Source: Alphaproteobacteria bacterium (lineage in GTDB: Bacteria; Pseudomonadota; Alphaproteobacteria; Micavibrionales; UBA2020). From it: a stretch of DNA of 64,000 bases. The notes beneath the pieces are model-generated. The model saw only the letters and a program-made list of their open reading frames with translations. It did no database searches and was not told where the DNA came from. Shown piece by piece: positions 43,101 through 64,000 of this stretch. The stretch covers positions 770,230 through 834,229 of the forward strand of contig JAICWS010000002.1 of the NCBI GenBank assembly GCA_025934695.1, in the 5' to 3' direction. Positions within the stretch are counted from its first letter, which is position 1; each line of letters begins with the position of its first letter. Both the position numbers and the translations under genes were made by a program.

Positions 43101-46100
43101 ATGAGCGAATCCAATCAGAATAATAAATTCTCCGTTGGGGCATTCCTTTTCATGCCTCAATTTAAGTACAGTTTCAGGGCGGCGGCGCACCTGTATCCCG
43201 TGTTCATCCAGCTCATCGCGACCGTTTTCGCGGCGTCGGGCCTCCTACCCAAGAACCACGAGGCCATGCGCTTCGGTTCTTCGGACGTTACGAAGAAATA
43301 CACCTTCCGCGACCTCGTCGGGGAAGCCTGGTATCACCTCCGCCGCACCCGCGCGACCCCGCGGCAGTGGGCGATGTATTTCTCCGTCCTCCTGATGATT
43401 TTCTGCTTTGCAACCGCGATCATCGGCGTCACCGGCCGCGTCTTCCTGGGCATCGGCGTTTCTGCCCAGGCGCAGCTTTTCACTCTCGGCGCGTCCAACA
43501 CCTCGATTCAGAACGGCATGTCTTCCGCTTCGTCCCTCCTCTTCGACAAGCGCATGGACCAAAGCCAGATGGGCGGTATCGGTTATAACGACTGGGGCCT
43601 GTTCATGCTCGACAAGATCGTGCGTGAATCCGCGCAGACCCCGCAGGTCGGCGGTACTCTCCAGAACGCTTTCTCCGCGATCATCCTGACCTATAACACG
43701 GCGATCACCGTTGTGGCGGCCGTGATGATCTTCTGGATCATCCTCTCCGTCGTCGTGGACACGGCCAAGACCGGCGTCCTGGGCGGCGGGCGGCATAACA
43801 TGGTCTGGGCGCCGATCCGCATCGTGTTCGCGCTCGGCCTGATGATTCCGCTCGGCTCGGCCGGTTATTCTTCGGGCCAGTATTGCGTCATGAAGCTGGC
43901 GGAATGGGGCTCGAACCTCGGCACCAACGGGTGGAACGCCTATGTGGGCGCGCTCTCGGCCAACAACGACTTCCTGGCGCCCATCATGCCGGGCGGCTCG
44001 ACGAGTCTTGTCAACGCGATCGCCGAAATGCGCCTGTGCCAGGTGGCCTATAACTCTTATGTCGTCAAGGCGACCAACCCGCCGCCGGCGCGCCAGCTTG
44101 TCGGCGCACGCAACACCTGGTCGGCCGATGGCGGCACGCTGATGCATGCGCTGACGAACGGTAACGACGCGGCGCTGTGCGGCGCTCTCAATATCGCGGC
44201 GCCTGCCGGTAACGGCGACGCGCTGATGTCGGGCACGCTCAGCAGCTGGAGCTATTCGCCAGGCGGCATGGGCACGGTGCCTCCTCGTCCCAGTGACAAT
44301 ACGAATTCGTTCCTGACGTCGCTCACGACTGCCCTGGAAGACGCCACAATCGTCGGGCTGGCCCTCGTGAACCCGATGAGCCCGCTCGGTAAAGGCTCCT
44401 CGCCCTGGATGTCCGGTTATACATTCGGCAACCCCTTTACCGCGATGGCAGGTATCGCCAGCTTCCAGGCGGCCCAGGCAACGATGCGCCAGACGATCAT
44501 CGCGAATACCCTTGGCACGCTGACAGGCACGGTCGAACCGAACATGCTGAAGTTCGCCTGCGCCTATGCTGCGCACCATGTCGTCGGCGGCACGCCGATC
44601 GTGACGGCAGCGGTTGACGTTAACCCGGTCGCGTTCACCACCATGGGCAACCTGTGCACCGGCAACCCGGATACCGACTGCGGAGCGACAGCGCTTCCGC
44701 CGCCTCCGGGTCCGGCGACGGGCGCCTACGACCCGAACTACAGCTGCCACGGCGCATCCATCGCGGCGTTCAACACGAACCTGGGCGGCGCGCTGAACGG
44801 CGCCATGACGGCTCTCCTGAGCTGGCTGACCGGCGGTAACTTCAAGTCCGAGATGCTGCAGTACGGCTGGGCAAGCGCGGGCGCGTTCTACAACAAGGTC
44901 ACGTCCATGAACGCCTCGGCGCAGGCCATGGGGCAACCCACCATTACCTATACTCCGGGCAAGCTGGGCGCGGCGATGGCGGACTGCTACAGTTCCTATT
45001 CTTCCATCGGCGACTGCCATGGCACTCACATCGACTATGAAACCGCCATGGTCATGCAGGAATATACCCGTTGGTACGAAGAATATGCAGCCACGGCGGC
45101 AGGCGCCGCCGGTCTGGGCGACGGTACGGCCAGTATCGGCCAGCAGGCCGCTCAGGCGGACAAGCCCAACGGCATGAGCATGTGGAAAATTGGCCTTGCA
45201 CTGATCAAGGGCGGTTCATCCGCAGTCGCGTCTCTCATCGAGACGTCGGTCTTCGGTCCCGACTCTCGTAACCAGCTGCTGGTCAACCTGGTGGGCAGCG
45301 TGAACGACAACACGCTTCCGCTGGCCAACCTCGCCAAGATGGGCGTCGGCATGGTCATCATGGGCGGCTCCATCATCTTCGCCTGCTCGGTTCTGCAGGG
45401 CGCGTTGGGAGCGATCCCGCTCGCCGGCACGGCCATTGCGAACAGCGCGATCTTCGCTTTCGTGACGGCGACGGCTGCGACGCTGATTTCGTCGGGCATG
45501 ATGCTGACGTTCTTCACGCCGATCATGCCTTTCATCCGGTCTGCCTTCGCGACACTGACATGGATGGTCTCCATCTTCGAGGCCGTCTGCATGGTCCCGA
45601 TCGCGGCGCTGGCGCACCTGACGACGGAAGGCGAAGGCCTTGCCGCCGGCGCGCGCCAGTGCTGGGTGCTGTGGCTGAACGTGCTGGTCAGGCCTATACT
45701 ATATGTTATGGGCTTCGTGGGCGCGTTCATCGTGTTCAACGCCTGGGTCTGCTACTTCACCACGGCGTTCGCCGCGGCCGCCGCGTCTTCCCCGATCCAG
45801 GACAACATCATCCTGCGTATCATCGCCATGTTCTTCAACTCGACGGTGTATGTGGGCACGGTATGGGCGACGGCCAACTCCTGCTTCAAGATGGTCGACA
45901 TCATCCCGAACGCCCTGATGCGCTGGATGCCGGGCGGATCGGTCGACCATAGCTTCGACGACGGCGCCCAGGCGGCCCAGGGCTATGCGCAAAGCGCGGC
46001 TTCCACCATCAGCCGCGGCTACGGCGCGGTCGCTCAGGACACCGGCTATGGCATGGGCAAGGCGGCTGGCGCGGCGACGATGACCACGACGAAGGGCGCC

Positions 46101-46286
46101 GATGGCAGCACGACCACCTCGAACTTTGCCGGCAGCGTCACACAAGCCCAGGACGGCTCGTTCCAATCAGGTACGGGCATGGCCGGAGCGGCGGCTAAGT
46201 GGGGTAATTCCAAGCAGACGGCAAGCGGCGAGAATCCCAACACCGACCAATACAACAAAACCTTCGGTGGTGGCGGCACCGGCTAA
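43101..46286 (+). CDS. DotA/TraY family-like polytopic inner-membrane protein (type IVB secretion component homologue)
   Basis: Start placed at MSESNQNN; 1061 aa. The block TAKTGVLGGGRHNMVWAPIRIVFALGLMIPLGSAGYSSGQYCVMKLAEWGS, and the C-terminal block VSIFEAVCMVPIAALAHLTTEGEGL...LNVLVRPILYVMGF, match from memory the two most conserved DotA/TraY segments. A large Gly/Ala/Thr-rich periplasmic middle region and a size of about 1000 aa also fit. Confidence 0.72.
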   Translation: MSESNQNNKFSVGAFLFMPQFKYSFRAAAHLYPVFIQLIATVFAASGLLPKNHEAMRFGSSDVTKKYTFRDLVGEAWYHLRRTRATPRQWAMYFSVLLMIFCFATAIIGVTGRVFLGIGVSAQAQLFTLGASNTSIQNGMSSASSLLFDKRMDQSQMGGIGYNDWGLFMLDKIVRESAQTPQVGGTLQNAFSAIILTYNTAITVVAAVMIFWIILSVVVDTAKTGVLGGGRHNMVWAPIRIVFALGLMIPLGSAGYSSGQYCVMKLAEWGSNLGTNGWNAYVGALSANNDFLAPIMPGGSTSLVNAIAEMRLCQVAYNSYVVKATNPPPARQLVGARNTWSADGGTLMHALTNGNDAALCGALNIAAPAGNGDALMSGTLSSWSYSPGGMGTVPPRPSDNTNSFLTSLTTALEDATIVGLALVNPMSPLGKGSSPWMSGYTFGNPFTAMAGIASFQAAQATMRQTIIANTLGTLTGTVEPNMLKFACAYAAHHVVGGTPIVTAAVDVNPVAFTTMGNLCTGNPDTDCGATALPPPPGPATGAYDPNYSCHGASIAAFNTNLGGALNGAMTALLSWLTGGNFKSEMLQYGWASAGAFYNKVTSMNASAQAMGQPTITYTPGKLGAAMADCYSSYSSIGDCHGTHIDYETAMVMQEYTRWYEEYAATAAGAAGLGDGTASIGQQAAQADKPNGMSMWKIGLALIKGGSSAVASLIETSVFGPDSRNQLLVNLVGSVNDNTLPLANLAKMGVGMVIMGGSIIFACSVLQGALGAIPLAGTAIANSAIFAFVTATAATLISSGMMLTFFTPIMPFIRSAFATLTWMVSIFEAVCMVPIAALAHLTTEGEGLAAGARQCWVLWLNVLVRPILYVMGFVGAFIVFNAWVCYFTTAFAAAAASSPIQDNIILRIIAMFFNSTVYVGTVWATANSCFKMVDIIPNALMRWMPGGSVDHSFDDGAQAAQGYAQSAASTISRGYGAVAQDTGYGMGKAAGAATMTTTKGADGSTTTSNFAGSVTQAQDGSFQSGTGMAGAAAKWGNSKQTASGENPNTDQYNKTFGGGGTG

Positions 46287-46310
46287 TAACCATCGTATTT
46301 CCAAGATTAA

Positions 46311-46448: not shown

Positions 46449-48299
46449 ATGCACATGCTGCGGCAGGCCGCCCTTGTCCTTGCGCTGACCCTGATCTCCT
46501 TCCTCGCCGCACAGGCGGAGGAGGCGCCCCAGCCCAAGCCTTCCATCGCGATGTACGGCGAAACGAAATACCAGCCCGGCTTTGCACACGTCGACTACGC
46601 GAACCCTGAGGCGCGGAAGGGCGGCGAGATGCATCTCGCCGAAGAAGGGACTTTTGATACGCTGAACCCCTTCGTGCTCAAGGGCTTGGCGGCGCCCGCT
46701 GTCGCCGGCATGCTGTTCCAGACCCTGACCACGGGCACCGAGGACGAACCGTTTTCCCGCTACGGCCTCGTCGCCGAGACGATCGAGATGCCCGAGGACC
46801 GCAGCTGGGTCGCCTTCAACCTGCGCAAGGAGGCGAAGTTCAACGACGGCACGCCGATCACCGCCGACGACGTCGTGTGGACTTTCAATACGCTCATGGA
46901 AAAGGGCCATCCGTTTTTCAAGGCCTATTATGCCAAGGTCGCCAAGGCCGAGGCGACCAGCCCATCGCGCGTCAAGTTCACCTTCAGCATGGCCAATAAC
47001 CGCGAGCTGCCCCTGATCATGGGCGAGCTGCCGGTCATGTCGAAGCATTACTGGGAAGGCAAGACCTTCGACGCCTCGACGCTGGAAGCGCCCTTGGGCA
47101 GCGGCCCTTACCGCGTTAAATCGGTCGACCAGGGCCGCCGCATCACCTTCGAGCGCGTGAAGGACTGGTGGGCGAAAGATCTGCCGATCGTGAAAGGGAT
47201 GTATAACTTCGACACTATCGTCATCGACATGTATCGCGACGAAACGGTGCTGTTCCAGGCCTTTTTCTCCGGCGAATACGATTTCCGCCAGGAAAACGTC
47301 GCCAAGAACTGGGCCGCCGAATATGACGAAAAGAAGCCCGTCAAGGAGGGGCTGATCAAGAAGGCGGAGATCAAGCACAGCCTGCCCACCGGCATGCAGG
47401 CTTTCGCCTACAACATCCGCAAGCCCGTATTCCAGGATCCGCGCGTGCGCGAAGCGCTGGGCTACGCCTTCGACTTCGAATGGTCGAACAAGCAGTTCGC
47501 CTACGGCACCTATGCGCGCACGCACAGCTATTTCGAGAATTCGGACATGGCAGCCACCGGCCTGCCCACCGGCAAGGAGCTCGAGATCCTGCAGCAGTAT
47601 AAGGGCAAGATCCCGGACGAGGTCTTCACCAAGGAATTCACGCTGCCCACGACCGACGGCAGCGGCAACGGCATCCGCGACAATCTGGCCAAGGCGAAGG
47701 AACTGCTGACGCAGGCCGGCTGGAAGATCGGTTCCAGCGGCGTGCTCGAAAAGGACGGTCAGCCCTTCAAGTTCGAAATCCTCATCGACAGTCCGGCATT
47801 CGAGCGCTGGATCCTGCCCTTCATCGGCAACCTGAAGAAACTGGGCGTCGTGGCCAACTTGCGCAACGTCGATACCGCGCAGTACCAGCACCGCATCGAG
47901 AACTTCGATTTCGACATGACGGTGCATTCCTTCGGCCAGTCGCTGTCGCCCGGCAACGAGCAGCGCGACTACTGGGGTTCTGACAAGGCCGATGTCCACG
48001 GCAGCCGCAACATCATCGGCATCAAAAACCCGGTCCTCGACGATCTCATCCAAAAGCTGGTCAGCGCGAAGGATCGTGAAGAACTCGTGGCCATCTGTCA
48101 CGCCATGGACCGCGTGCTACTGTGGAATTATTATGTGATCCCCCAATGGTATCATCCCGCCTGGTGGATCGCCTATTGGGACAAATTCGGCCGCCCCGAG
48201 ACTGCCCCCAAATACGGACTGGGCGTTCCCGAAACCTGGTGGTACGACGCCCAGAAGGCTGCTAAAATTGCGGAAAAAGCGCCGGAGAAAAAACAATAG
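46449..48299 (+). CDS. yejA: ABC transporter periplasmic substrate-binding protein, family 5 (YejA-like peptide/microcin C type)
   Basis: Signal peptide MHMLRQAALVLALTLISFLAAQA. About 600-aa SBP_bac_5 architecture. First gene of a yejABEF-ordered operon. Confidence 0.88.
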   Translation: MHMLRQAALVLALTLISFLAAQAEEAPQPKPSIAMYGETKYQPGFAHVDYANPEARKGGEMHLAEEGTFDTLNPFVLKGLAAPAVAGMLFQTLTTGTEDEPFSRYGLVAETIEMPEDRSWVAFNLRKEAKFNDGTPITADDVVWTFNTLMEKGHPFFKAYYAKVAKAEATSPSRVKFTFSMANNRELPLIMGELPVMSKHYWEGKTFDASTLEAPLGSGPYRVKSVDQGRRITFERVKDWWAKDLPIVKGMYNFDTIVIDMYRDETVLFQAFFSGEYDFRQENVAKNWAAEYDEKKPVKEGLIKKAEIKHSLPTGMQAFAYNIRKPVFQDPRVREALGYAFDFEWSNKQFAYGTYARTHSYFENSDMAATGLPTGKELEILQQYKGKIPDEVFTKEFTLPTTDGSGNGIRDNLAKAKELLTQAGWKIGSSGVLEKDGQPFKFEILIDSPAFERWILPFIGNLKKLGVVANLRNVDTAQYQHRIENFDFDMTVHSFGQSLSPGNEQRDYWGSDKADVHGSRNIIGIKNPVLDDLIQKLVSAKDREELVAICHAMDRVLLWNYYVIPQWYHPAWWIAYWDKFGRPETAPKYGLGVPETWWYDAQKAAKIAEKAPEKKQ

Positions 48300-48348
48300 C
48301 CCGAGCTTAAGGGCTTAAAGGCTTAAAGGCGCCCTTGGGGTTCGTTCA

Positions 48349-49467
48349 GTGGCCGCATATATCATCCGCCGCCTGCTGCTCATGATACCGACGCTGTTCG
48401 GCATCATCCTGATCAATTTTCTCATCATCCAGCTGGCCCCGGGCGGCCCGGTCGAGCAGATGATCGCCAAGCTGCAGGGGATGGATGTTTCCGCGACGCA
48501 GCGTTTTTCCGGCGGTGGCAGCGATACCAGCCTTTCCAGTCAGCAATCCCAGGCGGCGATGAACATGTCGAGTGGCGCGTCGAAATACCGCGGCGCGCAG
48601 GGCCTGCCGCCTGAATTCATCGCCAGTCTCGAAAAGCAGTTCGGCTTCGACAAGCCGCTGCACGAGCGCTTCTTCCTGATGCTGAAGAACTACCTGACGT
48701 TCGATTTCGGCAAGAGCTATTTCCAGGACAAAAAGGTGACCGACCTGCTGCTGGAAAAGATGCCGGTCTCGATCTCGCTCGGCCTGTGGGCGACACTGCT
48801 GATCTATATGATCTCCATTCCGCTCGGCATTGCGAAGGCGGTACGCGACGGATCGAAGTTCGATGTCTGGTCCAGCGTCGTCATTATCGTGGGGCATTCA
48901 ATCCCGCAGTTCCTCTTCGCCATTCTGCTCGTCATCGTCTTCGCGGGCGGCAAATACCTGAATATCTTCCCGCTGCGGGGCCTGACCTCCGACAACTGGC
49001 ACGAGATGGACTGGCCGCACCGCATCCTCGACTATTTCTGGCATATCACGTTGCCTGTCACCGCCAGCGTCATCACCGGCTTCGCGGGACTCACCATCCT
49101 GACCAAGAACTCCTTCCTCGAGGAGGTGAGCAAGCTCTACGTGCTGACCGCGCGGGCCAAAGGGCTGACCGAGCATAGAATCCTTTATGGACACGTGTTT
49201 CGCAATGCGATGCTGATCGTGATCTCGCAGATCCCGGGCAGCCTGCTCGGCATTTTCCTGACGGGATCGGTCCTGATCGAGGTGATCTTCTCCCTCGACG
49301 GCTTAGGATTGCTGGGTTACGAATCCACGCTCAACCGCGATTATCCCGTCATGTTCGCGACACTGTATATTTTCACCATCTTCGGGATGCTCATCACGCT
49401 GATCAGCGACCTGACCATGACCTGGGTTGACCCGCGCATCGACTTTCGCGCGCTGGAGGGCCGCTGA
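48349..49467 (+). CDS. yejB: ABC transporter permease (YejB-like)
   Basis: GTG start. N-terminal YIIRRLLLMIPTLFGIILINFLIIQLAPGGP. Binding-protein-dependent permease fold. Confidence 0.9.
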   Translation: MAAYIIRRLLLMIPTLFGIILINFLIIQLAPGGPVEQMIAKLQGMDVSATQRFSGGGSDTSLSSQQSQAAMNMSSGASKYRGAQGLPPEFIASLEKQFGFDKPLHERFFLMLKNYLTFDFGKSYFQDKKVTDLLLEKMPVSISLGLWATLLIYMISIPLGIAKAVRDGSKFDVWSSVVIIVGHSIPQFLFAILLVIVFAGGKYLNIFPLRGLTSDNWHEMDWPHRILDYFWHITLPVTASVITGFAGLTILTKNSFLEEVSKLYVLTARAKGLTEHRILYGHVFRNAMLIVISQIPGSLLGIFLTGSVLIEVIFSLDGLGLLGYESTLNRDYPVMFATLYIFTIFGMLITLISDLTMTWVDPRIDFRALEGR

Positions 49468-50495: not shown

Positions 50496-50503
50496 GTTTC
50501 GAT

Positions 50504-52117
<1,614 letters not shown>

Positions 52118-56768: not shown

Positions 56769-56772
56769 TCGA

Positions 56773-57708
56773 ATGGTCATTATTGACGATTTTGGCGATT
56801 ACGACAGCGCGTCCGAACGTCAAAAACGGCACGAAGCTTCGGATCGCAAGGACCGGTTCCTGATGGCCGCGGGCGCACGTCCCGCAAGCGCCCAGGACTA
56901 CCAGGCCTGGCTCGAAAGCCATCTCGATCATGGCGGCAAGATCGGAAGCGTTGAACAGCGCGCGTTCAATAGCTCCGGCACATACACGATCTCGCGCGAC
57001 GCCGAATTGCCGGCGGGGCTTTGTGGCTCTGATTCCGTACATGTCATCGTGCCCGAGGGCATTACCCTGACTACGAAAAACCGGGGTCATTGCACCGTCT
57101 ATAACATCGCGGACGGCAGTGGCGACGATTTCCGCCAGTCGGTCGTTTATCGCGAAATCCTGCCCTCAATGATCGAGCGCGGCTATGCGCTCGATCAGCT
57201 CGTCCCGCAGAAGGACTGGGAAGGCATTGTCAGCGGCGTTCTTGAAGCGAAGGTCGGCAATATGCGCAAGGCCAGCGTCGCCGATGCCGATGCGATATTG
57301 AAAGTTCTGGGTGCACTCGATCTCGCCTCCGAGGCGAAGCGCCAGCTCGGCCTCGATCCCGCGATGCAGCTGCCCGCGCCGATGCAGAAAGCGGCGGATG
57401 ATTTCAAAGACGGGCTGACCGAGAGCTACAAGGCTTTCCGCTACAAGCTCGATCCTACCAGCCAGACGCCGGGACCGTCGCTGCTCAAGCCCAAGGTCAA
57501 TCCGGCGAAACAGGCGAAACAGGCGATGCAGGTGGCGGTGCAAGCGGCGACGACGGGCGCACCGGAGAAAATCGTTGTCATGCCGCGGCTGAAATTCAAG
57601 GGCGCGGCGCAGCCACCCTCGCCGGCCCCTGCCGCCGCCGCCGCGGATACGGATTCAGCCCCAAAAAAATGGGGTTTTCGGCGGCTTCTCGGCAAGATGA
57701 TGCCCTGA
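56773..57708 (+). CDS. Hypothetical protein, 311 aa, with Pro/Ala-rich basic C-terminus
   Basis: Start placed at MVIIDDFGDYD, 4 nt after the preceding stop. No signal peptide and no known motif. C-terminus ...AAAADTDSAPKKWGFRRLLGKMMP. Confidence 0.6.
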   Translation: MVIIDDFGDYDSASERQKRHEASDRKDRFLMAAGARPASAQDYQAWLESHLDHGGKIGSVEQRAFNSSGTYTISRDAELPAGLCGSDSVHVIVPEGITLTTKNRGHCTVYNIADGSGDDFRQSVVYREILPSMIERGYALDQLVPQKDWEGIVSGVLEAKVGNMRKASVADADAILKVLGALDLASEAKRQLGLDPAMQLPAPMQKAADDFKDGLTESYKAFRYKLDPTSQTPGPSLLKPKVNPAKQAKQAMQVAVQAATTGAPEKIVVMPRLKFKGAAQPPSPAPAAAAADTDSAPKKWGFRRLLGKMMP

Positions 57709-57872
57709 CGGGTCCTCGGCTTATCCGACTGAATCCGTTACCCTTTTTCGATGTTTGTGAAAGGCGGAAACGCGCATAGGCGCAAGAATCCGCTTCCCAA
57801 CGCTGTTTTTTGCGTGTAAAAGGGCCATCTGATTGGCTTAACCTTTTAAACTTAAAGAGATATCGGAAAGGG

Positions 57873-58088
57873 GTGATTACCATCGTACAGGTTATCGTAC
57901 GCGATAATAACGTCGACCAGGCTCTGCGCGCACTCAAGAAAAAGATGCAGCGCGAAGGTCTGTTCCGCGAAATGAAGATCCGCCGCCACTATGAAAAGCC
58001 TTCTGTGAAGAAGGCGCGCGAGCGGTCTGAAGCCGTGAGACGTCATCGCAAGCTCGAGCGCAAACGCAAAGAGCGCGACGGCGATTAG
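57873..58088 (+). CDS. rpsU: 30S ribosomal protein S21
   Basis: GTG start after GGAAAGGGG. Core sequence [40 protein letters not shown]. Confidence 0.93.
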
Positions 58089-58163: not shown

Positions 58164-58175
58164 CGCGAATTTTCC

Positions 58176-58847
58176 TCACTGGCCCGGATGCAGGCGGCTT
58201 TCGCATGCCTTGTAAAAGGCCGGGTTGATGTTCTGATAGGCTGCGCAGGCATCCGCCTGACCCGATGTGCCCGATGCCGCCGTCGGTGTGGGCGCGGACG
58301 CGCCGCCCTGCAGCGACTTGATCAACGCCGCCTTTTGCTCGGGCGACAGGTTCTGGATCTGCTGCGTCAGCGACGCGACCGGATCCGCCGCGGTCGCCGC
58401 CTGCGGCTGGTCCGCCATTTGCTGCTCGGTCGACTTCACGTAGGGCTGAAGCTGGTCGTGCAGCATCTGCTTCTGGTCGTTCGTGAGCATCTTGTCCCAT
58501 TGCGAACCGAAAGATCCGCTGTCGCCGCCCATTGACTTGGCCTGGTTGGTCAGCGCCTCGCGTTGCTCCGGCGACATGTTTTTGAATGTCTCGATCGCCT
58601 GTTGGAGCATGGCGTTGCGCTCCTCGGGCGACATGCCCTGAAACGCCTGCATCGCGGCGTCGGCCGGCGCCGCCGCCGCTCCACCGCCGGTGCCAGACGG
58701 TCCCGGCATTTCGGCGACGCTGTGAAAGGTTGTCGTATCCGCCCCTGGTGGCGTCGTGACGGATTGCTGCGCGAAGGCCGCGGGCGCGACAGCCAGGCCG
58801 ATGCCGAACACACAGGCGACAACCGTTTTTCCGACAATAGTTCTCAT
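58176..58847 (-). CDS. Periplasmic repeat protein with LTXXQ-like (Spy/CpxP-like) motifs
   Basis: Start at MRTIVGKT with an AGGAGG SD. Signal peptide ...APAAFAQ. Repeated MSPEER, MSPEQR, LTNDQK and LSPEQK helices. C-terminal Cys pair. The family call is tentative. Confidence 0.65.
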   Translation of the reverse strand: MRTIVGKTVVACVFGIGLAVAPAAFAQQSVTTPPGADTTTFHSVAEMPGPSGTGGGAAAAPADAAMQAFQGMSPEERNAMLQQAIETFKNMSPEQREALTNQAKSMGGDSGSFGSQWDKMLTNDQKQMLHDQLQPYVKSTEQQMADQPQAATAADPVASLTQQIQNLSPEQKAALIKSLQGGASAPTPTAASGTSGQADACAAYQNINPAFYKACESRLHPGQ

Positions 58848-58947
58848 GGGCACCTCCTGCCGTTGGCCACCCTTCAATTATACCGGAAGATTGCCTACGA
58901 AAGATAAACGAGGGCGAGAGCCTGAAAATATTCGTGAAAACAATAAG

Positions 58948-59889
58948 TTACAGATTGAATGCCGATTTCGGCCGCTTGCCACCGCCCAGCACATAGGCCT
59001 CGTCGGCCTCGCCGCCCAGGCGCTGGAATTCGGCCAGCGCCTTGCGCAGGGCTTCCTCGTTGATACGGTCGAAGCTTTCCGGGGGCGCCAAGGTCTCGGC
59101 GCCCGTCTTCAGGTTTTCGGAGACGACCGTGCGCTCGCGCGCCTCGAAATTGAAAATCTCCGTGACCTTGCGGCCGATGCCGGGATAGAGGCCATTCAGC
59201 GCGACGCGATTTTTTCCCACGAGGCTCCAGCTTTCCGACGTCTCCGCGGACGAGGGCGCGGACGCCACGGCGGGTGTGACGGCAGGCGCGGGTGAAGGCG
59301 CGCCTTTTTGTAGCAGCTTCAGCACATGCGGCTTGGCTTTCGCGAGATCAACCGCGGTCTTTCCCGCCTTGTCCGCGATGTCGGTGCGCGCGCCCGCCTT
59401 GATCAGGCAGTCGACGGTGCTCGTCATTTCCTTCTCGACCGCCCAGTGCAGCGCCGTGCGCCCGTTGGTGCGGATGATCGCATCGAGATCGGCCTGCGCC
59501 GCGATAAGCGCCTTGACGACATCGAGGTCGCCCGCGAAAGCGGCGAGATGGATCGGATAAATGTACTCGGGGCTATGCGTGTTCGGTTTCGCGCCGCCCT
59601 CGATGAGCGCCAGCGCGGCGTTCGGCTTCTTCTCGTCCATCGCGGCCATCAAGGGCGTTTGTCCCTCGCGCGACGGAATATTGGGGTCCGCCCCGAAGCC
59701 GATCAGCATCTGGATAATCCGCACATCGCCCTTTGTCGCCGCGATATGAAGCGCAGTGAGGCCTTTGTCGTCCTGGACGTCGATGCCGAACTTGCGCGGA
59801 ATGTAATAGGTGAGGCAATGCCGGATTTCGTCTGCGTCGCCCGTGCGTGCGGCATTCAGGAAGCTTTTCTTGCTGTGGAACAGGGGCAT
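58948..59889 (-). CDS. Ankyrin-repeat protein with conserved C-terminal module (array member 1)
   Basis: Start at MPLFHSKKSFLNAARTGD (ATG 59889, 2 nt after the upstream stop). ANK repeats (GLTALHIAATKGDVRIIQMLIGFGADPN...). Pro/Ala linker. C-terminal ESWSLVG...TEIFNFEARER...ENLKTGAE...LGG...KSAFNL. Confidence 0.88.
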   Translation of the reverse strand: MPLFHSKKSFLNAARTGDADEIRHCLTYYIPRKFGIDVQDDKGLTALHIAATKGDVRIIQMLIGFGADPNIPSREGQTPLMAAMDEKKPNAALALIEGGAKPNTHSPEYIYPIHLAAFAGDLDVVKALIAAQADLDAIIRTNGRTALHWAVEKEMTSTVDCLIKAGARTDIADKAGKTAVDLAKAKPHVLKLLQKGAPSPAPAVTPAVASAPSSAETSESWSLVGKNRVALNGLYPGIGRKVTEIFNFEARERTVVSENLKTGAETLAPPESFDRINEEALRKALAEFQRLGGEADEAYVLGGGKRPKSAFNL

Positions 59890-59891
59890 GC

Positions 59892-61037
59892 TTAAGGATT
59901 GCCGGCTTGCGGTTTCAGTGTTTTCTTGGCCAGGCGCGCGCCGAAGACGGCCTCGTCGTCGGCCTTGCCGCCCAGATCGCGCAAGGCACGGAGCGCCTTG
60001 TCCAGCAGCCCCTCGGGTGTCGCATCGAAAGACATGGGCTGCGTGACGGTTTCCGCCTGCGTCCGGAGGTTTTCCGAGATGGTGAAACGCTCGCGGCTTT
60101 CGAAATTGAATACTTCCGTCAGACGGCGCAGCAGCGCCGGATGGACGCTGACGCGCGCGACCTTTTCCTCGCCCATCAGCACCCAGGCTTCCGCGTCGCT
60201 CAAGGGGAGCTCGGTCGCCGTCGCATTCAGCGGCGTGGTGCGGCTCGCGATGATTTTTTTCACATGCGGCTCGATAAGCGGCACGATCGCCGCCGCGTGA
60301 TTGGACCGCCGCGCACATTCGAGCGCATCCTGGGACTGGCTGTTGAGAATATCGACGCGCGCCCCGCGGTCGATCAGCAGCTTGACGATATCCGCCTCGC
60401 CGGCGTTGATCGCGGAGTGGAGCGCCGTATTCCTGTAGTCCGCCCGCGCGTTGATATCAGCGCCTTTGTCGAGCAGCGCCTGGGCCAGGTCAAGCTGACC
60501 ATGCATTGCCGCATAATGAAGCGGACGGTATCCATTACTGGCGCGGGCATTGGGATTCGCCCCGGCGTCGATCATGTCTCCAGCCAGTTTCCATGCGCTC
60601 TTCTCAAGCGCCTTCAACAGCGGAGCACCCTTGCTCACATCGGCTTTCGCGTCGAGCAGGAGGCGGGCGATCTCCGTGTTGCTGCCGTGGCGGTTCAGCG
60701 AAAGGCTGAGAATACTTTCGTCATTCGGCATCTCGGCGTTCGGGTCCGCCCCGGCCTTGAGCAGCGCGGCGACAATCTCCTTGGCCCCATCGGGGTTGCG
60801 CAGGACGGCAAGCGCGAGCGGCGTATAGCCAAATTGGCAGGTGGCGTCGACGGGGAATCCCGCCTGGATCAGGGCTTCCACGGTTTCGGTGTGGCCTTCC
60901 TGCGCTGCCAGGTGCAACGCAGTATTTCCATCGTTGCGCGCAGCAAGGCACACCTGCGGCTCGCGCTGCAGGTACTGCCTGACGGCGTCGGTATCGCCCC
61001 GTTCGGCGGCTTTCAGGAAATTCCGCGCGGTGAACAA
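59892..61037 (-). CDS. Ankyrin-repeat protein with conserved C-terminal module (array member 2, largest)
   Basis: Probable TTG start 61037, 7 nt after GGAG, giving (M)FTARNFLKAAERGD like its paralogues. The track start 61079 is also TTG. More ANK repeats than the other members. C-terminal EAWVLMG...TEVFNFESRER...ENLRTQAE...LGG, with a divergent tail KKTLKPQAGNP. Confidence 0.85.
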   Translation of the reverse strand: MFTARNFLKAAERGDTDAVRQYLQREPQVCLAARNDGNTALHLAAQEGHTETVEALIQAGFPVDATCQFGYTPLALAVLRNPDGAKEIVAALLKAGADPNAEMPNDESILSLSLNRHGSNTEIARLLLDAKADVSKGAPLLKALEKSAWKLAGDMIDAGANPNARASNGYRPLHYAAMHGQLDLAQALLDKGADINARADYRNTALHSAINAGEADIVKLLIDRGARVDILNSQSQDALECARRSNHAAAIVPLIEPHVKKIIASRTTPLNATATELPLSDAEAWVLMGEEKVARVSVHPALLRRLTEVFNFESRERFTISENLRTQAETVTQPMSFDATPEGLLDKALRALRDLGGKADDEAVFGARLAKKTLKPQAGNP

Positions 61038-61069
61038 TGGATTGCTCCATAAATACGGTAAACTATCGC

Positions 61070-61098
61070 AATATGGCAAGTTTTTGGCACGACGTCAA
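61070..61098 (-). promoter_or_regulatory. Candidate internal promoter in the only long spacer of the ankyrin array
   Basis: The minus strand reads TTGACG, 17-nt spacer, CATATT, ending about 30 nt upstream of the TTG 61037 start. Confidence 0.3.
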
Positions 61099-61138
61099 TT
61101 CTGTAAATTTGGCCAAAAATCAGCTTGTTAGGAAACGC

Positions 61139-62065
61139 CTACAGATTGAAGGATTTCTTCGCTGCCTTGTCGGCCGGATCTCCGCCCAGTTGCCGGAAGG
61201 CGTCCGCCGCCTGCGCGACCGCGGCATCGGACAGCATGTCGAACTTTTCCGCCGGTCCCATCGTCTCCGCGCCCGTCTTGAGGTTCTCGGTGATGACGAT
61301 GCGCTCGCGGGTCGCAAAGTTGAAAACTTGGGTGATCTTGCGCGCAAGGTCCGGGTAAACGCCGACATGGGCCGCCTTGTCCTCGCCCATGCGCTTCCAG
61401 GTCTCGCTGTCGGCGCAGGCTGCCGCCGGCGCTATCGTCGCGGCAGGAGCTGGCGCTTCTTTCCGGGGCGCCTTGAGCGCCGCGTCGATCATCGCCGCGA
61501 TGCGCGGTTTATTCTGACGCGCATAAGACGCAGGCGTGACTCCATCGGTTCCGGGAATATCGGGCCGCGCGCCCGCGTCCAGCAGGAATTGAACCATGGC
61601 GCCGCGATTTGACGCGACGGCGTAATAAAGTGGCGTACGTTCTTCCGTGGTATTGACGGGATCGATTAGGGCACCGCGCGAAATGAGGTCCTTCGCGGTG
61701 TCGAGATCGCCCAGATGAGCGGCCCAATGCAGTGCATATGAATATGTCGGAGCATGCGCATTGACGTCCGCCCCCGCCGCCATCAGGACTTTCGCGGCTT
61801 CAGGCTTTCCTTCGGAGACGGCAACGAACAGCGGCGTGGCGCCGATAGTGTTGCTGGCCTCAATGTCCGCCTTCATTTCGATCAGGAAGCGGAGCGCCTC
61901 GATCCGGCCATGCTTCGCCGCCAGGTGCAGGGCCGTATTGCCTTCCTTGTCGCGGACGCTGGCCGGCAGATATTCGGGAATATAATAGTCGTAGCAATAC
62001 TTCAGCTCGGCGACATCGCCCGCGGCGGCGGCTTTGAGGAATTTCTTCTGCGGCGATCCGAACAT
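61139..62065 (-). CDS. Ankyrin-repeat protein with conserved C-terminal module (array member 3)
   Basis: N-terminal MFGSPQKKFLKAAAAGD. ANK repeats (GNTALHLAAKHGRIEALRFLIEMKADIE...). C-terminal ETWKRMG...TQVFNFATRER...ENLKTGAE...LGG...KKSFNL. Confidence 0.88.
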   Translation of the reverse strand: MFGSPQKKFLKAAAAGDVAELKYCYDYYIPEYLPASVRDKEGNTALHLAAKHGRIEALRFLIEMKADIEASNTIGATPLFVAVSEGKPEAAKVLMAAGADVNAHAPTYSYALHWAAHLGDLDTAKDLISRGALIDPVNTTEERTPLYYAVASNRGAMVQFLLDAGARPDIPGTDGVTPASYARQNKPRIAAMIDAALKAPRKEAPAPAATIAPAAACADSETWKRMGEDKAAHVGVYPDLARKITQVFNFATRERIVITENLKTGAETMGPAEKFDMLSDAAVAQAADAFRQLGGDPADKAAKKSFNL

Positions 62066-62077
62066 GACGTCCTGCGC

Positions 62078-63025
62078 TTAAAGGTTGAAGGCTTTTTTGG
62101 CGCCCTTGTCGGGCTGCTCGCCGCCCAGCGACTTCAGCTTCTCGGCCGCCCGCGCGAGAATGTCGGGGGAAAGGGCGTCGAACTTTTCGGGCGGCGTCAT
62201 GGTCTCGGCCGCGGTCTTCAGGTTCTCGGTGATGACCGTGCGTTCGCCCGCGGTGAAATTGAAGATCTCGGTCAGCTTGCGGGAAATGGGCGGATAGACG
62301 TTGACATGCGCAAGCGTGTCCGGGGCCAGCAGCATCCAGCTCTCGCCCGCGACGATCGGCTCGTTTGCGGGCGCTTGTGCGGCTGCGGGCTGCGAGACCG
62401 GCACCGGCGCATGCATGCCGCGTTTCTGGGCCGCTTCGATCATTTCCTGCAGCGCCTTGCTACCGATCGCCTTCGCGCGGTCCCAGGCGACGTAATTGTT
62501 GCTGTCCTTCATGTCCGTGCGCGCCCCCTGGTCGAGCAGGAACTGCGCTTCGGGGTTGCGGCGGTTTTCGACCGCCATGTGCAGCGGCGTCTGGAGATAG
62601 CTGCGCGTCACCACGTTGAGGTCCGCGCCCGCGCCCGCCAGCGCCTTGACGGCATCGAGATCGCCGTTGCGCGCCGCCCAGTGCAGCGGATAATAATAGT
62701 CGTTGTCGTGCGCGCTGACGTTCGCGCCCGCCGCGACGAGAAGCTTCGTGGCCTCCGTGCAGCGGTTGTAGCAGGCCCACCACAGGGCGGTGCGTCCCGA
62801 ACTGTCGGCGATTTCCAGGTCGGCCTTCTTCGCGATCAGGATCTTCAGCGTGTCGACCGCGCCCGCCTTGGCCGCGAGGATCAGCGCCGTGCGGCCCGCG
62901 CCGCCGCGCACGTTGATGTCGTATTGCGAAGGAATGTCCTGCGACAGGCAGCGGTTGAGCTCGGCCACATCGCCGCCTGAGGCGGCATTGAGGAATTTTT
63001 TCTGCGGTGAGGATCCGAACATCAT
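62078..63025 (-). CDS. Ankyrin-repeat protein with conserved C-terminal module (array member 4)
   Basis: N-terminal MMFGSSPQKKFLNAASGGD. ANK repeats. C-terminal ESWMLLA...TEIFNFTAGER...ENLKTAAE...LGG...KKAFNL. Confidence 0.88.
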   Translation of the reverse strand: MMFGSSPQKKFLNAASGGDVAELNRCLSQDIPSQYDINVRGGAGRTALILAAKAGAVDTLKILIAKKADLEIADSSGRTALWWACYNRCTEATKLLVAAGANVSAHDNDYYYPLHWAARNGDLDAVKALAGAGADLNVVTRSYLQTPLHMAVENRRNPEAQFLLDQGARTDMKDSNNYVAWDRAKAIGSKALQEMIEAAQKRGMHAPVPVSQPAAAQAPANEPIVAGESWMLLAPDTLAHVNVYPPISRKLTEIFNFTAGERTVITENLKTAAETMTPPEKFDALSPDILARAAEKLKSLGGEQPDKGAKKAFNL

Positions 63026-63031
63026 TGCACC

Positions 63032-63940
63032 TTAAAGGTTAAAAGCTTTCTTCTGGCCGCGCTCGGGAGGCTGGCCGCCCAGGCTTTTCAGCCGGTCTTC
63101 GGCGCGTCCCACCACCTCCTCGCCCAGAGTTTCGAATTTTTCGGGCTGCGCCAGGCTTTCCGCGCCGGTCTTCAGGTTTTCTGCGATGATGACGCGCTCG
63201 CGGTTCTCGAAATTGAAGATCTCGGTGATCCGGCGGCCCATCGATGGATAGTCGGCGATATGCGCCACGCGCGCCGCGCCCATGAGCTTCCAGCTATCGC
63301 CATCTTCCGCCGGAGAAGTTTCGGCTTGCGGCGCTTTCTGTTTCGCGGCGGCGGTGATGATATTCAGGAGGCGGTCGGTTCTCTTGTCGCGCGCATGGTC
63401 GGCAGGCGTCTTGTTGTCGCGGTCGGCGATATCAGTGCGCGCGTGGCTCGCCATCAGGAATTCGACGACCGGCCCGTGGCCGTTGATGACCGCCCAATGG
63501 AGGGCGGTGCGGCCGGTTTCCTTGCTGACGGCATTCAGGTCGGCGCCCGCTGAAACAAGGTCTTTGACGACATCGAGCTGGCCGTAGCGCGCGGCGGTCA
63601 GCAGCGGCGAGACATAGCTGGTCGTATGCGTGTTGACGTCGGCGCCCGACGCGATCAGGAAACGCGCCACGGCGGTCTTGTCGTTGGTGATGGCGATGTG
63701 CAGCGGTGTCTTGCCGTCGCCGTCGGAGATGTTCAGGTCGGCCTTCGCTTCGACCAGCGCTTTGACCGCGTCAAGCTGGCCGCTTTCGGCCGCCAGATAC
63801 AAAGCCGTTTTACCGCTGCCGTTTTTGACGTCGACGCTGAAGTTGCCCGGAACCAGGGCGGAAAGGCAATATAGCAGCTCCGCCATGTCGCCTTTCGCCG
63901 CGGCCTTCAGAAAGGATTTTTTCGAGCTGATGAAAGCCAT
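63032..63940 (-). CDS. Ankyrin-repeat protein with conserved C-terminal module (array member 5)
   Basis: N-terminal MAFISSKKSFLKAAAKGD. ANK repeats (GKTALYLAAESGQLDAVKALVEAKADLN...). C-terminal DSWKLMG...TEIFNFENRER...ENLKTGAE...LGG...KKAFNL. Confidence 0.88.
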   Translation of the reverse strand: MAFISSKKSFLKAAAKGDMAELLYCLSALVPGNFSVDVKNGSGKTALYLAAESGQLDAVKALVEAKADLNISDGDGKTPLHIAITNDKTAVARFLIASGADVNTHTTSYVSPLLTAARYGQLDVVKDLVSAGADLNAVSKETGRTALHWAVINGHGPVVEFLMASHARTDIADRDNKTPADHARDKRTDRLLNIITAAAKQKAPQAETSPAEDGDSWKLMGAARVAHIADYPSMGRRITEIFNFENRERVIIAENLKTGAESLAQPEKFETLGEEVVGRAEDRLKSLGGQPPERGQKKAFNL

Positions 63941-63954
63941 TTACGATCGGTCCT

Positions 63955-64000
63955 TCAGAGATTGAATGTTTTCTTCGGCGCGTCGCCGCCGCCGCCCAGG
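63955..64000 (-). CDS. 3' end of a sixth array member (rest lies right of the window)
   Basis: The minus strand reads ...LGGGGDAPKKTFNL-stop (TGA at 63955-63957). This is the same LGG...KK-x-FNL ending as members 1, 3, 4 and 5. Confidence 0.6.
   Translation of the reverse strand, partial: LGGGGDAPKKTFNL

What the first reader, a model, noticed from the sequence alone, without database searches (positions are those of the whole stretch)
43101..64000. Co-occurrence of host-interaction-type genes in one 21-kb stretch (synthesis hypothesis)
The right third of the window holds several genes that fit a secretion-and-effector picture. They are a DotA/TraY homologue, an operon of three unknown genes ending in a protein with a basic Pro/Ala-rich tail (56323-57708), and at least six ankyrin proteins with a common C-terminal module. 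Elsewhere in the window are two signal-less HExxH 'vgr-related' metallopeptidase-like proteins (34273-35818) and an orphan RTX/T1SS substrate (16318-16884). None carries a Sec signal. Taken together, this looks like the gene set of an organism that injects proteins into eukaryotic or bacterial cells. The ankyrin family would be a cargo set recognised through its shared module. This is inference from gene content, not from any demonstrated linkage.
Basis: inference. Interest (0 to 1): 0.6.

Follow-up and report, generated by a model that had tools for sequence, protein, structure and literature searches.

The report
Ankyrin gene array beside lone DotA
This conserved chromosome stretch from a Micavibrio-like alphaproteobacterium holds one DotA-like membrane protein and a tandem array of ankyrin proteins with an uncharacterised C-terminal domain, but they lie among housekeeping genes and nothing shows they form a secretion-and-cargo system.

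Summary
- a DotA/TraY-family protein (43101-46286);
- a three-gene operon (56323-57708);
- five complete ankyrin genes plus the tail of a sixth (58948-64000), all sharing a C-terminal module;
- two HExxH proteins and a small RTX protein elsewhere in the window.

None of these has an N-terminal Sec-type signal.

The reading as a secretion-and-effector gene set is only weakly supported.
- **Core chromosome, not an island.** The order HAD, DotA-like, yejABEF, ior, rpsU, ankyrin array recurs in many Micavibrio-like MAGs.
- **DotA-like gene stands alone.** Relatives carry up to four tandem copies at the same spot. No other type IVB component was found in 710 kb of window plus related loci.
- **Module is tied to ankyrin repeats.** 130 of 141 family representatives are ankyrin plus module, so the array looks like one paralogous family rather than varied cargo carrying a shared tag.
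- **Module has no known relative.** It folds confidently (five strands, one helix, basic tail) but matches no Pfam family and no PDB or BFVD structure.

Most likely these are modular adaptors, with variable ankyrin faces and a constant docking domain. Export is possible but untested. The family is new and restricted to this lineage. The proposed system is not demonstrated.

The parts
43101..46286 (+). Solitary DotA/TraY-family polytopic membrane protein (1061 aa). It has about 4 N-terminal TM segments, a loop of about 490 aa, a C-terminal TM cluster and a Gly/Ala/Thr-rich tail.
   Evidence: TIGR04346 scores 211 bits (cutoff 100). NF033886 scores 131.5 bits (cutoff 500). PDB match to DotA 9ngy, E 2.8e-10. 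TM profile. Gene call P0163 is identical. Tandem paralogues sit at the same locus in relatives.
46449..52117 (+). yejABEF-type ABC importer. It comprises the substrate-binding protein 46449-48299, permeases 48349-49467 and 49467-50495, and a double ATPase ending at 52117. This is housekeeping spacer between the DotA-like gene and the ankyrin array.
   Evidence: tblastn gives 64-83% identity to syntenic genes in 12 or more related loci. Those genes carry SBP_bac_5, BPD_transp_1 and ABC_tran.
52560..56132 (-). Fused indolepyruvate/2-oxoacid:ferredoxin oxidoreductase (1190 aa), a housekeeping gene.
   Evidence: 72-82% identity to syntenic genes in related loci. Those genes carry POR and DUF6537.
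56323..56625 (+). ORF1 of the three-gene operon (100 aa). No known family and no signal peptide.
   Evidence: Searches find no family. 63% identical to the ORF at the same position in L039.
56622..56768 (+). ORF2 (48 aa), translationally coupled to ORF1 through an ATGA overlap.
   Evidence: Sequence read. 60% identical in L039, where a 47-aa gene is called.
56773..57708 (+). ORF3 (311 aa), preceded by GGAG, with a basic Pro/Ala-rich C-terminal tail. No known family.
   Evidence: P0284 is the identical NCBI call. There are four homologues at 36-57% identity. Two of them lie directly upstream of rpsU next to ankyrin arrays. Tails are shown.
57870..58088 (+). rpsU (ribosomal protein S21). This is the conserved landmark next to the ankyrin array.
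   Evidence: 94-100% identity in 12 or more related loci. Ribosomal_S21 is annotated in L039 and L040.
58176..58877 (-). Protein with a signal peptide and repeated SPEQ[RK]-type motifs; DUF3106 sits at threshold. It is specific to this genome among the loci seen.
   Evidence: Pfam DUF3106 scores 24.5 bits (cutoff 24.3). Signal-like N-terminus. No tblastn hit in related loci.
58948..59889 (-). Ankyrin-CTD paralogue 1 (313 aa). The CTD is encoded at 58948-59244.
   Evidence: Pfam Ank. Module HMM E 8e-42. Alignments.
59892..61079 (-). Ankyrin-CTD paralogue 2 (395 aa, with extra repeats). The CTD is at 59892-60197 and the tail reads ...KKTLKPQAGNP.
   Evidence: E 1.8e-40.
61139..62065 (-). Ankyrin-CTD paralogue 3 (308 aa). 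The CTD is at 61139-61414.
   Evidence: E 4.3e-46. The gene call is confirmed as P0159.
62078..63025 (-). Ankyrin-CTD paralogue 4 (315 aa; NCBI aa from the second Met). The CTD is at 62078-62353.
   Evidence: (matches P0014).
63032..63940 (-). Ankyrin-CTD paralogue 5 (302 aa). Ankyrin repeats span residues 1-202, a Pro/Ala linker follows, and the CTD spans residues 212-302 (63032-63307).
   Evidence: Identical to P0013. AF2 full-length model has pLDDT 93.4. The CTD-only model has pLDDT 91.5.
63955..64000 (-). C-terminal tail (...LGGGGDAPKKTFNL*) of a sixth ankyrin-CTD gene that runs off the window.
   Evidence: Direct reading.
34273..35818 (-). Two paralogous HExxH proteins without signal peptides (280 and 194 aa), outside the finding's coordinates. 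They are conserved core genes between DUF983 and SURF1.
   Evidence: sub-threshold eCIS_core and DUF6782. 44-61% identical at the same position in L034 and L038.
16318..16884 (+). Small RTX protein (188 aa) with a T1SS C-terminal target domain. No T1SS genes lie nearby.
   Evidence: Neighbours are Hda, an unknown protein and PFK.

Best explanation
The stretch is a vertically inherited core-chromosome segment of a Micavibrio-like alphaproteobacterium. It is not a secretion or effector island. Two lineage-specific families sit among housekeeping operons.

**(a) DotA/TraY-like membrane protein.** It stands without other type IVB genes. Relatives carry up to four tandem copies at the same spot.

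**(b) Operon-like array of at least six ankyrin-CTD paralogues, made by tandem duplication.** Each protein has four parts:
- 4-7 ankyrin repeats, a variable protein-binding face;
- a flexible Pro/Ala linker of about 20 aa;
- a conserved acidic domain of about 78 aa, with five beta strands and one helix;
- a short disordered basic tail, often ending [KR]Kx[FL]x[LP].

The mechanism I commit to is a modular adaptor. The diverged ankyrin faces bind different protein targets. The constant CTD plus tail docks every paralogue onto one common partner. Because the proteins lack Sec signals and the constant element is C-terminal, a Sec-independent export or membrane apparatus is the leading candidate for that partner. 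The partner's identity is unknown.

**Shown:** the anatomy, the paralogy, the synteny, the restriction of the module to ankyrin proteins, and the lack of any known relative for the CTD. **Inferred:** the adaptor logic and any export.
For: **Synteny.** yejABEF, ior and rpsU lie beside ankyrin-CTD arrays in 12 or more related loci. The DotA-like gene is on the same contig about 12 kb from the array in the Micavibrio sp. MAG (L019 and L034/L035). The same is inferred from matching contig lengths for six more MAGs. L039 repeats the order ior, three ORFs, rpsU, five-gene ankyrin array.

**Housekeeping on both sides.**

**Solitary DotA-like gene.**. The control plasmid pRX1 has DotB/C/D/G/H/I/O, IcmT and a coupling protein within 35 kb of its DotA.

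**One paralogous family.** The ankyrin regions are also homologous, at 40.5% mean identity against 48.5% for the CTD. Intergenic gaps are 2-59 nt.

**Constant CTD.** 10 of the 12 invariant or nearly invariant columns of the 141-member alignment fall in the CTD. 546 representative clusters carry it, always at the C-terminus.

**Fold.** pLDDT is 91-97 for the CTD, the linker is flexible and the tail disordered. Mean net charge is +2.8 over the last 15 residues and -2.3 over the core.

**Signals.** No Sec signal was found.
Against: No partner of the CTD has been identified and there is no experimental data. The CTD is only modestly better conserved than the ankyrin part among the window's paralogues (48.5 against 40.5%), so the contrast between constant and variable parts is not dramatic. 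No secretion, protease or other plausible docking gene is consistently adjacent. Whole genomes could not be searched, so a complete T4BSS elsewhere is not excluded. The lineage assignment rests on MAG labels and on protein identity of 64-83% for the transporter and oxidoreductase genes (94-100% for rpsU). At least one Micavibrionales MAG is described as a photoheterotroph (PMC9933672 abstract), so a predatory lifestyle is an extrapolation.
Confidence: 0.6

Rival explanations
1. A Dot/Icm-type T4BSS, signalled by DotA, injects the ankyrin proteins into prey or eukaryotic cells, and the shared C-terminal module is the recognition tag.
For: - DotA/TraY family membership is met.
- The ankyrin proteins lack Sec signals.
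- They have a conserved C-terminal domain with a basic, partly hydrophobic extreme C-terminus. This loosely recalls type IV signals, a lead from memory that was not tested.
- DotA-like genes and ankyrin-CTD arrays co-occur on the same contigs across the clade.
- The ankyrin regions hit NCBIfam Legionella Ank effector models, but only through generic repeats and far below their cutoffs.
Against: - No other T4BSS gene lies in the window or within +-10 kb of the DotA-like genes in the five related loci examined (L034-L038).
- Nine T4BSS queries find nothing in 710 kb.
- The M. aeruginosavorus genome paper reports no evidence of a type III or IV system.
- DotA is not the substrate receptor in the known system (established knowledge).
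- The module is confined to ankyrin proteins, unlike the BID or XVIPCD tags.
- The co-location is explained by general synteny.
Confidence: 0.12
2. The ankyrin-CTD proteins are exported, but by a route that reads C-terminal signals independently of the DotA-like protein. The most plausible route is type I secretion, as described for the Orientia and Ehrlichia ankyrin proteins.
For: - The lineage uses T1SS. The window encodes an RTX protein with a T1SS target domain.
- M. aeruginosavorus has a complete T1SS that is up-regulated during attachment to prey.
- The conserved element is C-terminal, uncleaved and ends in a disordered tail.
- There is no Sec signal.
- Copy number varies between relatives, from 1 to at least 6 per locus.
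Against: - No match to the T1SS target-domain model (TIGR03661) was found in the three ankyrin proteins scanned against NCBIfam.
- A well-folded beta-rich domain is atypical for a T1SS signal.
- No ABC, MFP or TolC genes lie next to any array.
- The Orientia precedent is recalled from memory and was not checked here.
Confidence: 0.2
3. The ankyrin-CTD proteins stay inside the cell. They act as self-protection (immunity) proteins or regulators that bind and neutralise the predator's own enzymes, with the CTD serving oligomerisation or anchoring. The array would be a diversified immunity repertoire.
For: - An ankyrin immunity protein is documented in a bacterial predator: Bd3460 inhibits the DD-endopeptidases Bd3459 and Bd0816 (PMC4686830).
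- Tandem, diverged arrays are typical of immunity genes.
- A second conserved ankyrin-CTD locus lies next to a weak Lipase_3/Mbeg1-like ORF (L020 and L028).
- The housekeeping context and the lack of signal peptides fit a cytoplasmic location.
Against: - Bd3460 has a signal peptide and lies next to its cognate enzyme. Here there is no signal peptide, and no toxin or hydrolase gene adjoins the main array.
- The lipase-like hit is below threshold.
- This model gives no role to the conserved basic C-terminal tail.
Confidence: 0.2

Closest known systems
Legionella and Coxiella Dot/Icm (type IVB) system with its ankyrin effectors (AnkX, AnkH, AnkY and others)
   Same: A DotA/TraY-family polytopic membrane protein is present. 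There are multiple ankyrin-repeat proteins without Sec signals, and the relevant information lies at the C-terminus.
   Different: Only DotA is present in all DNA examined, and it scores far below the DotA equivalog cutoff. Legionella ankyrin effectors do not share a folded C-terminal domain. Their signal is a short disordered stretch read by the DotL/DotM/IcmSW complex, not by DotA (established knowledge). Here the ankyrin proteins are one paralogous family in a core-genome array.
IncI-type conjugative TraY, within plasmid T4BSS clusters (for example Methylocapsa polymorpha pRX1)
   Same: Same protein family. It is the best plasmid match, at about 27% identity over a third of the protein.
   Different: The plasmid gene lies within 35 kb of DotB/C/D/G/H/I/O, IcmT and a coupling protein. 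The window gene lies between a HAD hydrolase and an ABC importer. Relatives carry up to four tandem copies without any partner gene.
Effector families defined by a shared C-terminal translocation domain (Bartonella Bep BID plus basic tail; Xanthomonas XVIPCD)
   Same: A conserved C-terminal domain of about 80-140 aa is followed by a positively charged tail, on proteins without Sec signals.
   Different: BID and XVIPCD sit on many different N-terminal enzymatic domains. This CTD sits almost only on ankyrin repeats. There is no sequence or fold match to any PDB entry. No VirB/VirD4 genes were seen.
Ankyrin plus constant C-terminal adaptor-domain families (poxvirus and Orientia Ank-PRANC/F-box; eukaryotic ASB Ank-SOCS box)
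   Same: The same design logic: a variable ankyrin target-binding part plus a small constant C-terminal docking domain, in large and often tandem paralogous families.
   Different: PRANC, F-box and SOCS boxes are short helical motifs that recruit eukaryotic cullin ligases. This CTD is beta-rich, has no Pfam hit and has no known partner. The comparison is by analogy from general knowledge.
Bdellovibrio Bd3460 ankyrin self-protection protein
   Same: An ankyrin-repeat protein in a bacterial predator lineage. Ankyrin serves as an inhibitor or binding scaffold (PMC4686830).
   Different: Bd3460 is periplasmic with a signal peptide, is a single gene next to its target enzyme, and lacks this CTD.

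Membership tests
DotA/TraY protein family | Score above the curated cutoff of TIGR04346 | tested here: met
   211 bits against a cutoff of 100. The topology resembles DotA. The PDB match is Legionella DotA.
Dot/Icm DotA proper (equivalog) | Score above the NF033886 cutoff | tested here: not met
   131.5 bits against a cutoff of 500, although the alignment covers the full length.
Type IVB secretion system (Dot/Icm or IncI Tra) | Other core components (DotB, DotC, DotD, DotG, DotH, DotI, DotL, DotO, IcmT) encoded near DotA | tested here: not met
   There are no Pfam or NCBIfam T4SS hits among the window genes scanned. Pfam annotation shows none within +-10 kb of the DotA-like genes in L034-L038. 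tblastn with pRX1 components finds only DotA in 710 kb. The control plasmid shows the expected clustering.
Type IVB secretion system (Dot/Icm or IncI Tra) | A complete machinery somewhere in the genome | not testable with these tools
   Only 64 kb of the 1.22-Mb contig is available, and exact look-ups of window proteins failed. The M. aeruginosavorus paper reports no evidence of a T3SS or T4SS.
Effector family with a shared C-terminal translocation domain (BID or XVIPCD type) | The same C-terminal domain fused to diverse N-terminal effector domains | tested here: not met
   130 of 141 representatives are ankyrin plus CTD. No other N-terminal family recurs.
Effector family with a shared C-terminal translocation domain (BID or XVIPCD type) | Sequence or fold similarity to a known translocation domain | tested here: not met
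   No Pfam hit at E<=5. The best Foldseek PDB hit has E 0.13, with TM-score normalised to the query no higher than 0.45 among the hits listed.
Effector family with a shared C-terminal translocation domain (BID or XVIPCD type) | Positively charged C-terminal tail | tested here: met
   Mean net charge is +2.8 over the last 15 residues in 148 family members. 81 of 148 have a dibasic pair in the last 12 residues.
Effector family with a shared C-terminal translocation domain (BID or XVIPCD type) | Machinery-dependent translocation into a target cell | not testable with these tools
   This needs reporter-fusion or secretome experiments.
Ankyrin-repeat proteins | Pfam Ank repeats above threshold | tested here: met
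   Ank_2 hits range from 1.4e-26 to 2.1e-37 in all five complete genes. The AF2 model shows the repeat helices at pLDDT 98.
Ank-PRANC/F-box adaptor proteins | A C-terminal PRANC or F-box-like helical motif | tested here: not met
   No such Pfam hit was found. The CTD is five strands plus one helix.
RTX / type I secretion substrate (16318-16884) | Ca-binding nonapeptide repeats plus a T1SS C-terminal target domain | tested here: met
   HemolysinCabind at 5.8e-14. TIGR03661 scores 47.7 bits against a cutoff of 17.6.
RTX / type I secretion substrate (16318-16884) | Adjacent T1SS ABC, MFP or OMP genes | tested here: not met
   The neighbours are Hda, an unknown protein, PFK and a bPH protein.
T6SS Vgr-linked or eCIS-core (DUF4157) metallopeptidase-like proteins (34273-35818) | Family model above threshold, or neighbouring VgrG, PAAR or Hcp genes | tested here: not met
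   eCIS_core scores 15.5 bits (cutoff 22) and DUF6782 scores 17.4 bits (cutoff 27). The neighbours are DUF983 and SURF1. The HExxH motif itself is present.
Bd3460-type ankyrin immunity proteins | A signal peptide and adjacency to the cognate secreted enzyme | tested here: not met
   No signal peptide. No hydrolase gene lies next to the main array. A sub-threshold lipase-like ORF adjoins a secondary locus.

The most novel reading that the evidence does not exclude
Micavibrio-like bacteria have detached a DotA-type channel protein from the type IVB machine. They keep it as a core-genome family, with up to four tandem paralogues. They would use it in a new contact-dependent export route during attachment to prey or host, alone or together with type I components. 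The ankyrin-CTD proteins would be its cargo or adaptors, recognised through the orphan beta-rich CTD and its basic tail.
Probability: 0.1. Interest if true: 0.8.

Novelty: new variant of a known kind. Interest (0 to 1): 0.4.

Why it matters
How epibiotic predators such as Micavibrio breach and drain prey is still unknown. Published work points only to type I and II secretion and RTX proteins.

Two lineage-specific families are concrete, untested candidates for that contact biology:
- a DotA-like membrane protein that has lost its usual type IVB neighbours and is present in up to four tandem copies in relatives;
- an expanded ankyrin family with a confidently folded C-terminal domain that has no Pfam or structural match. 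It comprises 546 clusters, nearly all from metagenomes.

Even if the two are unrelated, the CTD is a new domain worth a family definition. The practical lesson for annotation is that a single DotA/TraY hit plus ankyrin genes does not establish a Dot/Icm-type effector system.

Tried and rejected
- **Exact look-ups of window proteins.** I tried these to extend beyond the window and to obtain the assembly accession. Both failed because the assembly is not indexed. The listing of cluster members showed only that the source is an NCBI genome with a 1.22-Mb contig.
- **Known families for the CTD, ORF1-3 and the HExxH proteins.** Pfam at E<=5, NCBIfam and PADLOC gave nothing, or only sub-threshold or generic ankyrin hits.
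- **Fold search of the CTD-only model.** There was no significant match against PDB or BFVD. PH-like, chaperone-like, BID and XVIPCD resemblances are therefore not supported.
- **The word-indexed homologue search.** It found only 12 fragments. The exhaustive HMMER search was needed to see the family.
- **Literature.** No paper links Micavibrio or Micavibrionales with ankyrin families, DotA or T4BSS. PMC3930308 is not held.
- **Horizontally acquired island: considered and rejected.** GC is ordinary apart from a mild dip at 56-58 kb, and synteny is clade-wide.
- **Anti-phage defence system: considered and rejected.** Only ankyrin-repeat hits appeared.
- **A Legionella-type E-block signal in the tails.** I did not pursue this beyond inspection, because the acidic stretch lies at variable distance from the C-terminus.

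Full report
**1. What is in the sequence**

The window is about 60% G+C with no compositional island. There is only a mild dip to 55.8% at 56-58 kb.

I chose gene calls by third-position GC. Pfam and NCBIfam scans of those calls show an ordinary chromosomal region. It contains:
- alaS (3' part), ndk, two-component systems, kup, a porin, an rRNA methylase, an S9 peptidase and Hda;
- PFK, an M15 peptidase, YidC and a cytochrome oxidase assembly cluster;
- SURF1, an M32 carboxypeptidase, thrC, pyrD, an EAL protein and a HAD hydrolase.

After these, from 43101 rightwards, come the items of the finding. They are all present.
- **DotA-like gene.** 43101-46286(+) is a 1061-aa polytopic membrane protein. 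It passes the DotA/TraY family threshold (TIGR04346, 211 bits, cutoff 100). It aligns end to end with the Legionella-type DotA model, but at 131.5 bits, far below that model's 500-bit equivalog cutoff. Its only relative with a solved structure is Legionella DotA (9ngy, E 2.8e-10). Its hydropathy profile has the DotA layout.
- **Spacer genes.** 46449-52117 is a yejABEF-type importer and 52560-56132(-) is a fused 2-oxoacid:ferredoxin oxidoreductase. Both identifications rest on 64-83% identity to annotated syntenic genes.
- **Three-gene operon.** 56323-57708 holds three coupled ORFs of 100, 48 and 311 aa. ORF1 and ORF2 overlap by ATGA. A GGAG precedes ORF3, which has a basic Pro/Ala-rich tail.
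- **rpsU and its neighbour.** rpsU is at 57870-58088. A DUF3106-like protein with a signal peptide is at 58176-58877(-).
- **Ankyrin array.** Five complete ankyrin genes and the last 14 codons of a sixth fill 58948-64000(-). Gaps between them are 2-59 nt, which suggests an operon.
- **Items elsewhere in the window.** The HExxH pair and the small RTX/T1SS-domain protein are also as described. 'Vgr-related' is not supported beyond sub-threshold eCIS_core and DUF6782 similarity.
- **Signals.** None of the listed proteins has a Sec-type N-terminus by a hydropathy check.

**2. Whose genome**

The window's proteins are in the public collection only as unnamed NCBI entries on a 1.22-Mb contig.

A scan of one genome per species for the ankyrin module returned 33 loci, all from MAGs. 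Their labels are Micavibrio sp., 'Bdellovibrionales' (where NCBI files Micavibrio), Alphaproteobacteria, Rhodospirillales, Rhodospirillaceae, Proteobacteria, plain 'bacterium', and one Patescibacteria bin that is probably a mis-binned contig.

Housekeeping proteins of the window are 64-83% identical to those loci (94-100% for rpsU). The organism is therefore a Micavibrio-like alphaproteobacterium.

Cultured Micavibrio are obligate epibiotic predators of Gram-negative bacteria (PMC3189940). Extending that lifestyle to this genome is an inference. One Micavibrionales MAG is described as a photoheterotroph.

**3. The stretch is conserved core synteny, not an island**

In a dozen or more related loci the ankyrin array sits next to rpsU, followed by the oxidoreductase and yejFEBA.

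In the Micavibrio sp. MAG GCA_028283745.1, the overlapping loci L019, L034 and L035 show this order on one contig: ctaG, cox3, DUF983, HExxH protein, SURF1, M32, thrC, pyrD, EAL, HAD, DotA-like, yejABEF, ior, rpsU, ankyrin array. That is the window's order.

The far side of the array in relatives is PGM/PMM, an FtsJ-like methyltransferase, an M24 peptidase and a ChpT-like protein.

The three-ORF operon is a sub-clade feature at the same position. L039, from forest soil, has ior, three ORFs, rpsU, three unknown genes and then a five-gene ankyrin array. L040 has ORF3 and rpsU next to an ankyrin array.

The proximity of DotA and the ankyrin genes is thus explained by general conservation of gene order, which includes the housekeeping operons between them.

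**4. The DotA-like gene stands alone**

Relatives carry three (L034/L035) to four (L036, L038) tandem DotA-like paralogues at the same HAD|yejA junction. In L037 one of the four is called as two genes. The Pfam annotation shows no other Dot/Icm family within +-10 kb.

As a control, the best plasmid match was examined: Methylocapsa pRX1, about 27% identity. It has DotH, DotI, DotG, DotO-like, DotD, DotC, DotB-like, IcmT and a coupling protein within 35 kb of its DotA.

Using those proteins as tblastn queries against the window plus all Micavibrio-like loci (710 kb), only DotA found matches.

The M. aeruginosavorus genome paper states there is no evidence for a type III or IV system. It reports that type I secretion, most of the type II system, Sec and TAT are induced on attachment.

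A T4BSS elsewhere in this genome cannot be excluded with the data at hand, but no available evidence points to one.

**5. The ankyrin-CTD family**

- **Size.** The word-indexed search found only 12 metagenomic fragments. The exhaustive profile search found 546 representative clusters at E<=0.001 and 220 at E<=1e-10. Among the 150 best hits listed, the module is at the C-terminus in every case.
- **Architecture.** Of 141 representatives, 130 have Pfam ankyrin repeats and no other N-terminal family recurs. Ten of the 12 invariant or nearly invariant alignment columns lie in the CTD: W, T-x-x-FNF-x-x-R, F, A and GG.
- **Within the window.** The ankyrin parts are themselves homologous, at a mean of 40.5% identity against 48.5% for the CTD. 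The array is therefore a set of old tandem duplicates of a whole gene, not unrelated cargo sharing a tag.
- **Structure.** AlphaFold2 models are confident: pLDDT 93.4 for the full-length protein and 91.5 for the CTD alone. The layout is ankyrin solenoid, flexible Pro/Ala linker, five-strand meander plus one helix, then a disordered tail.
- **Charge.** The CTD core is acidic (-2.3) and the last 15 residues are basic (+2.8). A subfamily ends in KK[AST]FNL or a similar motif.
- **No known relatives.** Foldseek finds no significant match in PDB (best E 0.13) or BFVD (best E 0.007), with normalised TM-scores mostly below 0.5. Pfam at E<=5, NCBIfam and PADLOC give nothing for the CTD.
- **Other loci.** Other ankyrin-CTD loci in relatives have housekeeping or unknown neighbours. 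One conserved secondary locus adjoins a sub-threshold lipase-like ORF.

**6. How it most likely works**

The architecture is a variable ankyrin binding face, a flexible tether and a constant small domain with a conserved tail, repeated in several diverged copies in one operon. That is the design of an adaptor family: different targets, one common docking partner.

The partner is unknown. The proteins lack Sec signals and the constant part is C-terminal. A Sec-independent export or envelope apparatus is therefore the leading candidate, but this is inference.

I give 0.6 to the overall reading: core-genome lineage-specific families, a paralogous adaptor design, and no demonstrated link to DotA. 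The rivals are:
- export by type I secretion or another C-terminal-signal route, 0.2;
- intracellular immunity or regulation on the Bd3460 precedent, 0.2.

**7. Comparison with known systems, and novelty**

The DotA-like protein is a member of the DotA/TraY family. It is neither an equivalog of Dot/Icm DotA nor part of a visible T4BSS.

The ankyrin proteins are ordinary ankyrin-repeat proteins fused to a domain with no described family or fold match. They resemble BID and XVIPCD effectors only in having a C-terminal domain plus a basic tail, and they fail the diverse-cargo criterion. They resemble Ank-PRANC and Ank-SOCS adaptors in logic but not in fold.

I found no paper describing either feature in Micavibrio or its relatives.

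**Verdict.**
- Novelty is a new variant of known kinds.
- Interest is 0.4. That score rests on the orphan CTD family and the detached, amplified DotA-like genes, not on the proposed co-occurrence.

Noticed in passing
L034/L035 (Micavibrio sp. GCA_028283745.1), L036/L037, L038; window 43101-46286: Relatives carry three to four tandem DotA/TraY-like paralogues at the same HAD|yejA junction, with called products of 947-1469 aa at these loci. The window has one copy. In L037 one copy is called as two genes. No other T4BSS gene accompanies them.
   Followed up: partly
window 34273-35115 and 35234-35818 (-): The two HExxH (HEMTHxWQYQN) proteins are conserved core genes at the same DUF983|SURF1 position in L034 and L038, at 44-61% identity. 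They show only sub-threshold eCIS_core (DUF4157) and DUF6782 similarity. No Vgr, PAAR or Hcp genes lie nearby.
   Followed up: partly
L020 8969-13968 and L028 8963-13855: A second conserved ankyrin-CTD locus in two MAGs. It lies next to a sub-threshold Lipase_3/Mbeg1-like ORF and two paralogous unknown ORFs. In L020 a small ankyrin-only ORF and a NADAR protein follow; only the L020 ORFs were scanned. This may be an effector/immunity-like neighbourhood.
   Followed up: partly
window 58176-58877 (-): A protein with a signal peptide and repeated 'SPEQ[RK]xAL' motifs, with DUF3106 at threshold. It lies between rpsU and the ankyrin array and has no counterpart in the related loci.
   Followed up: partly
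window 56323-57708; L039 8435-9662; L040 2973-3923: The three-ORF operon is conserved as a unit just upstream of rpsU in the closest metagenomic relatives, so it is a real, sub-clade-specific gene set. It may be co-transcribed with rpsU, which is on the same strand after a 160-nt gap. Its function is unknown.
   Followed up: partly
L017 (DASPMW010000127.1, 2.6 kb): A contig in a MAG labelled Patescibacteria carries rpsU (97% identical to the window's) and an ankyrin-CTD gene in the Micavibrio-like arrangement. It is probably a mis-binned contig.
   Followed up: no
window 21662-23251 (+) and 23306-23860 (+): A pentapeptide-repeat/ion-channel fusion protein and a Ysc84 (SYLF) domain protein sit among the housekeeping genes. 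Neither was examined further.
   Followed up: no
window 56001-58000: This is the lowest G+C block of the window (55.8% against about 60%). It coincides with the three-ORF operon, the rpsU region and AT-rich intergenic DNA around 56130-56320.
   Followed up: no
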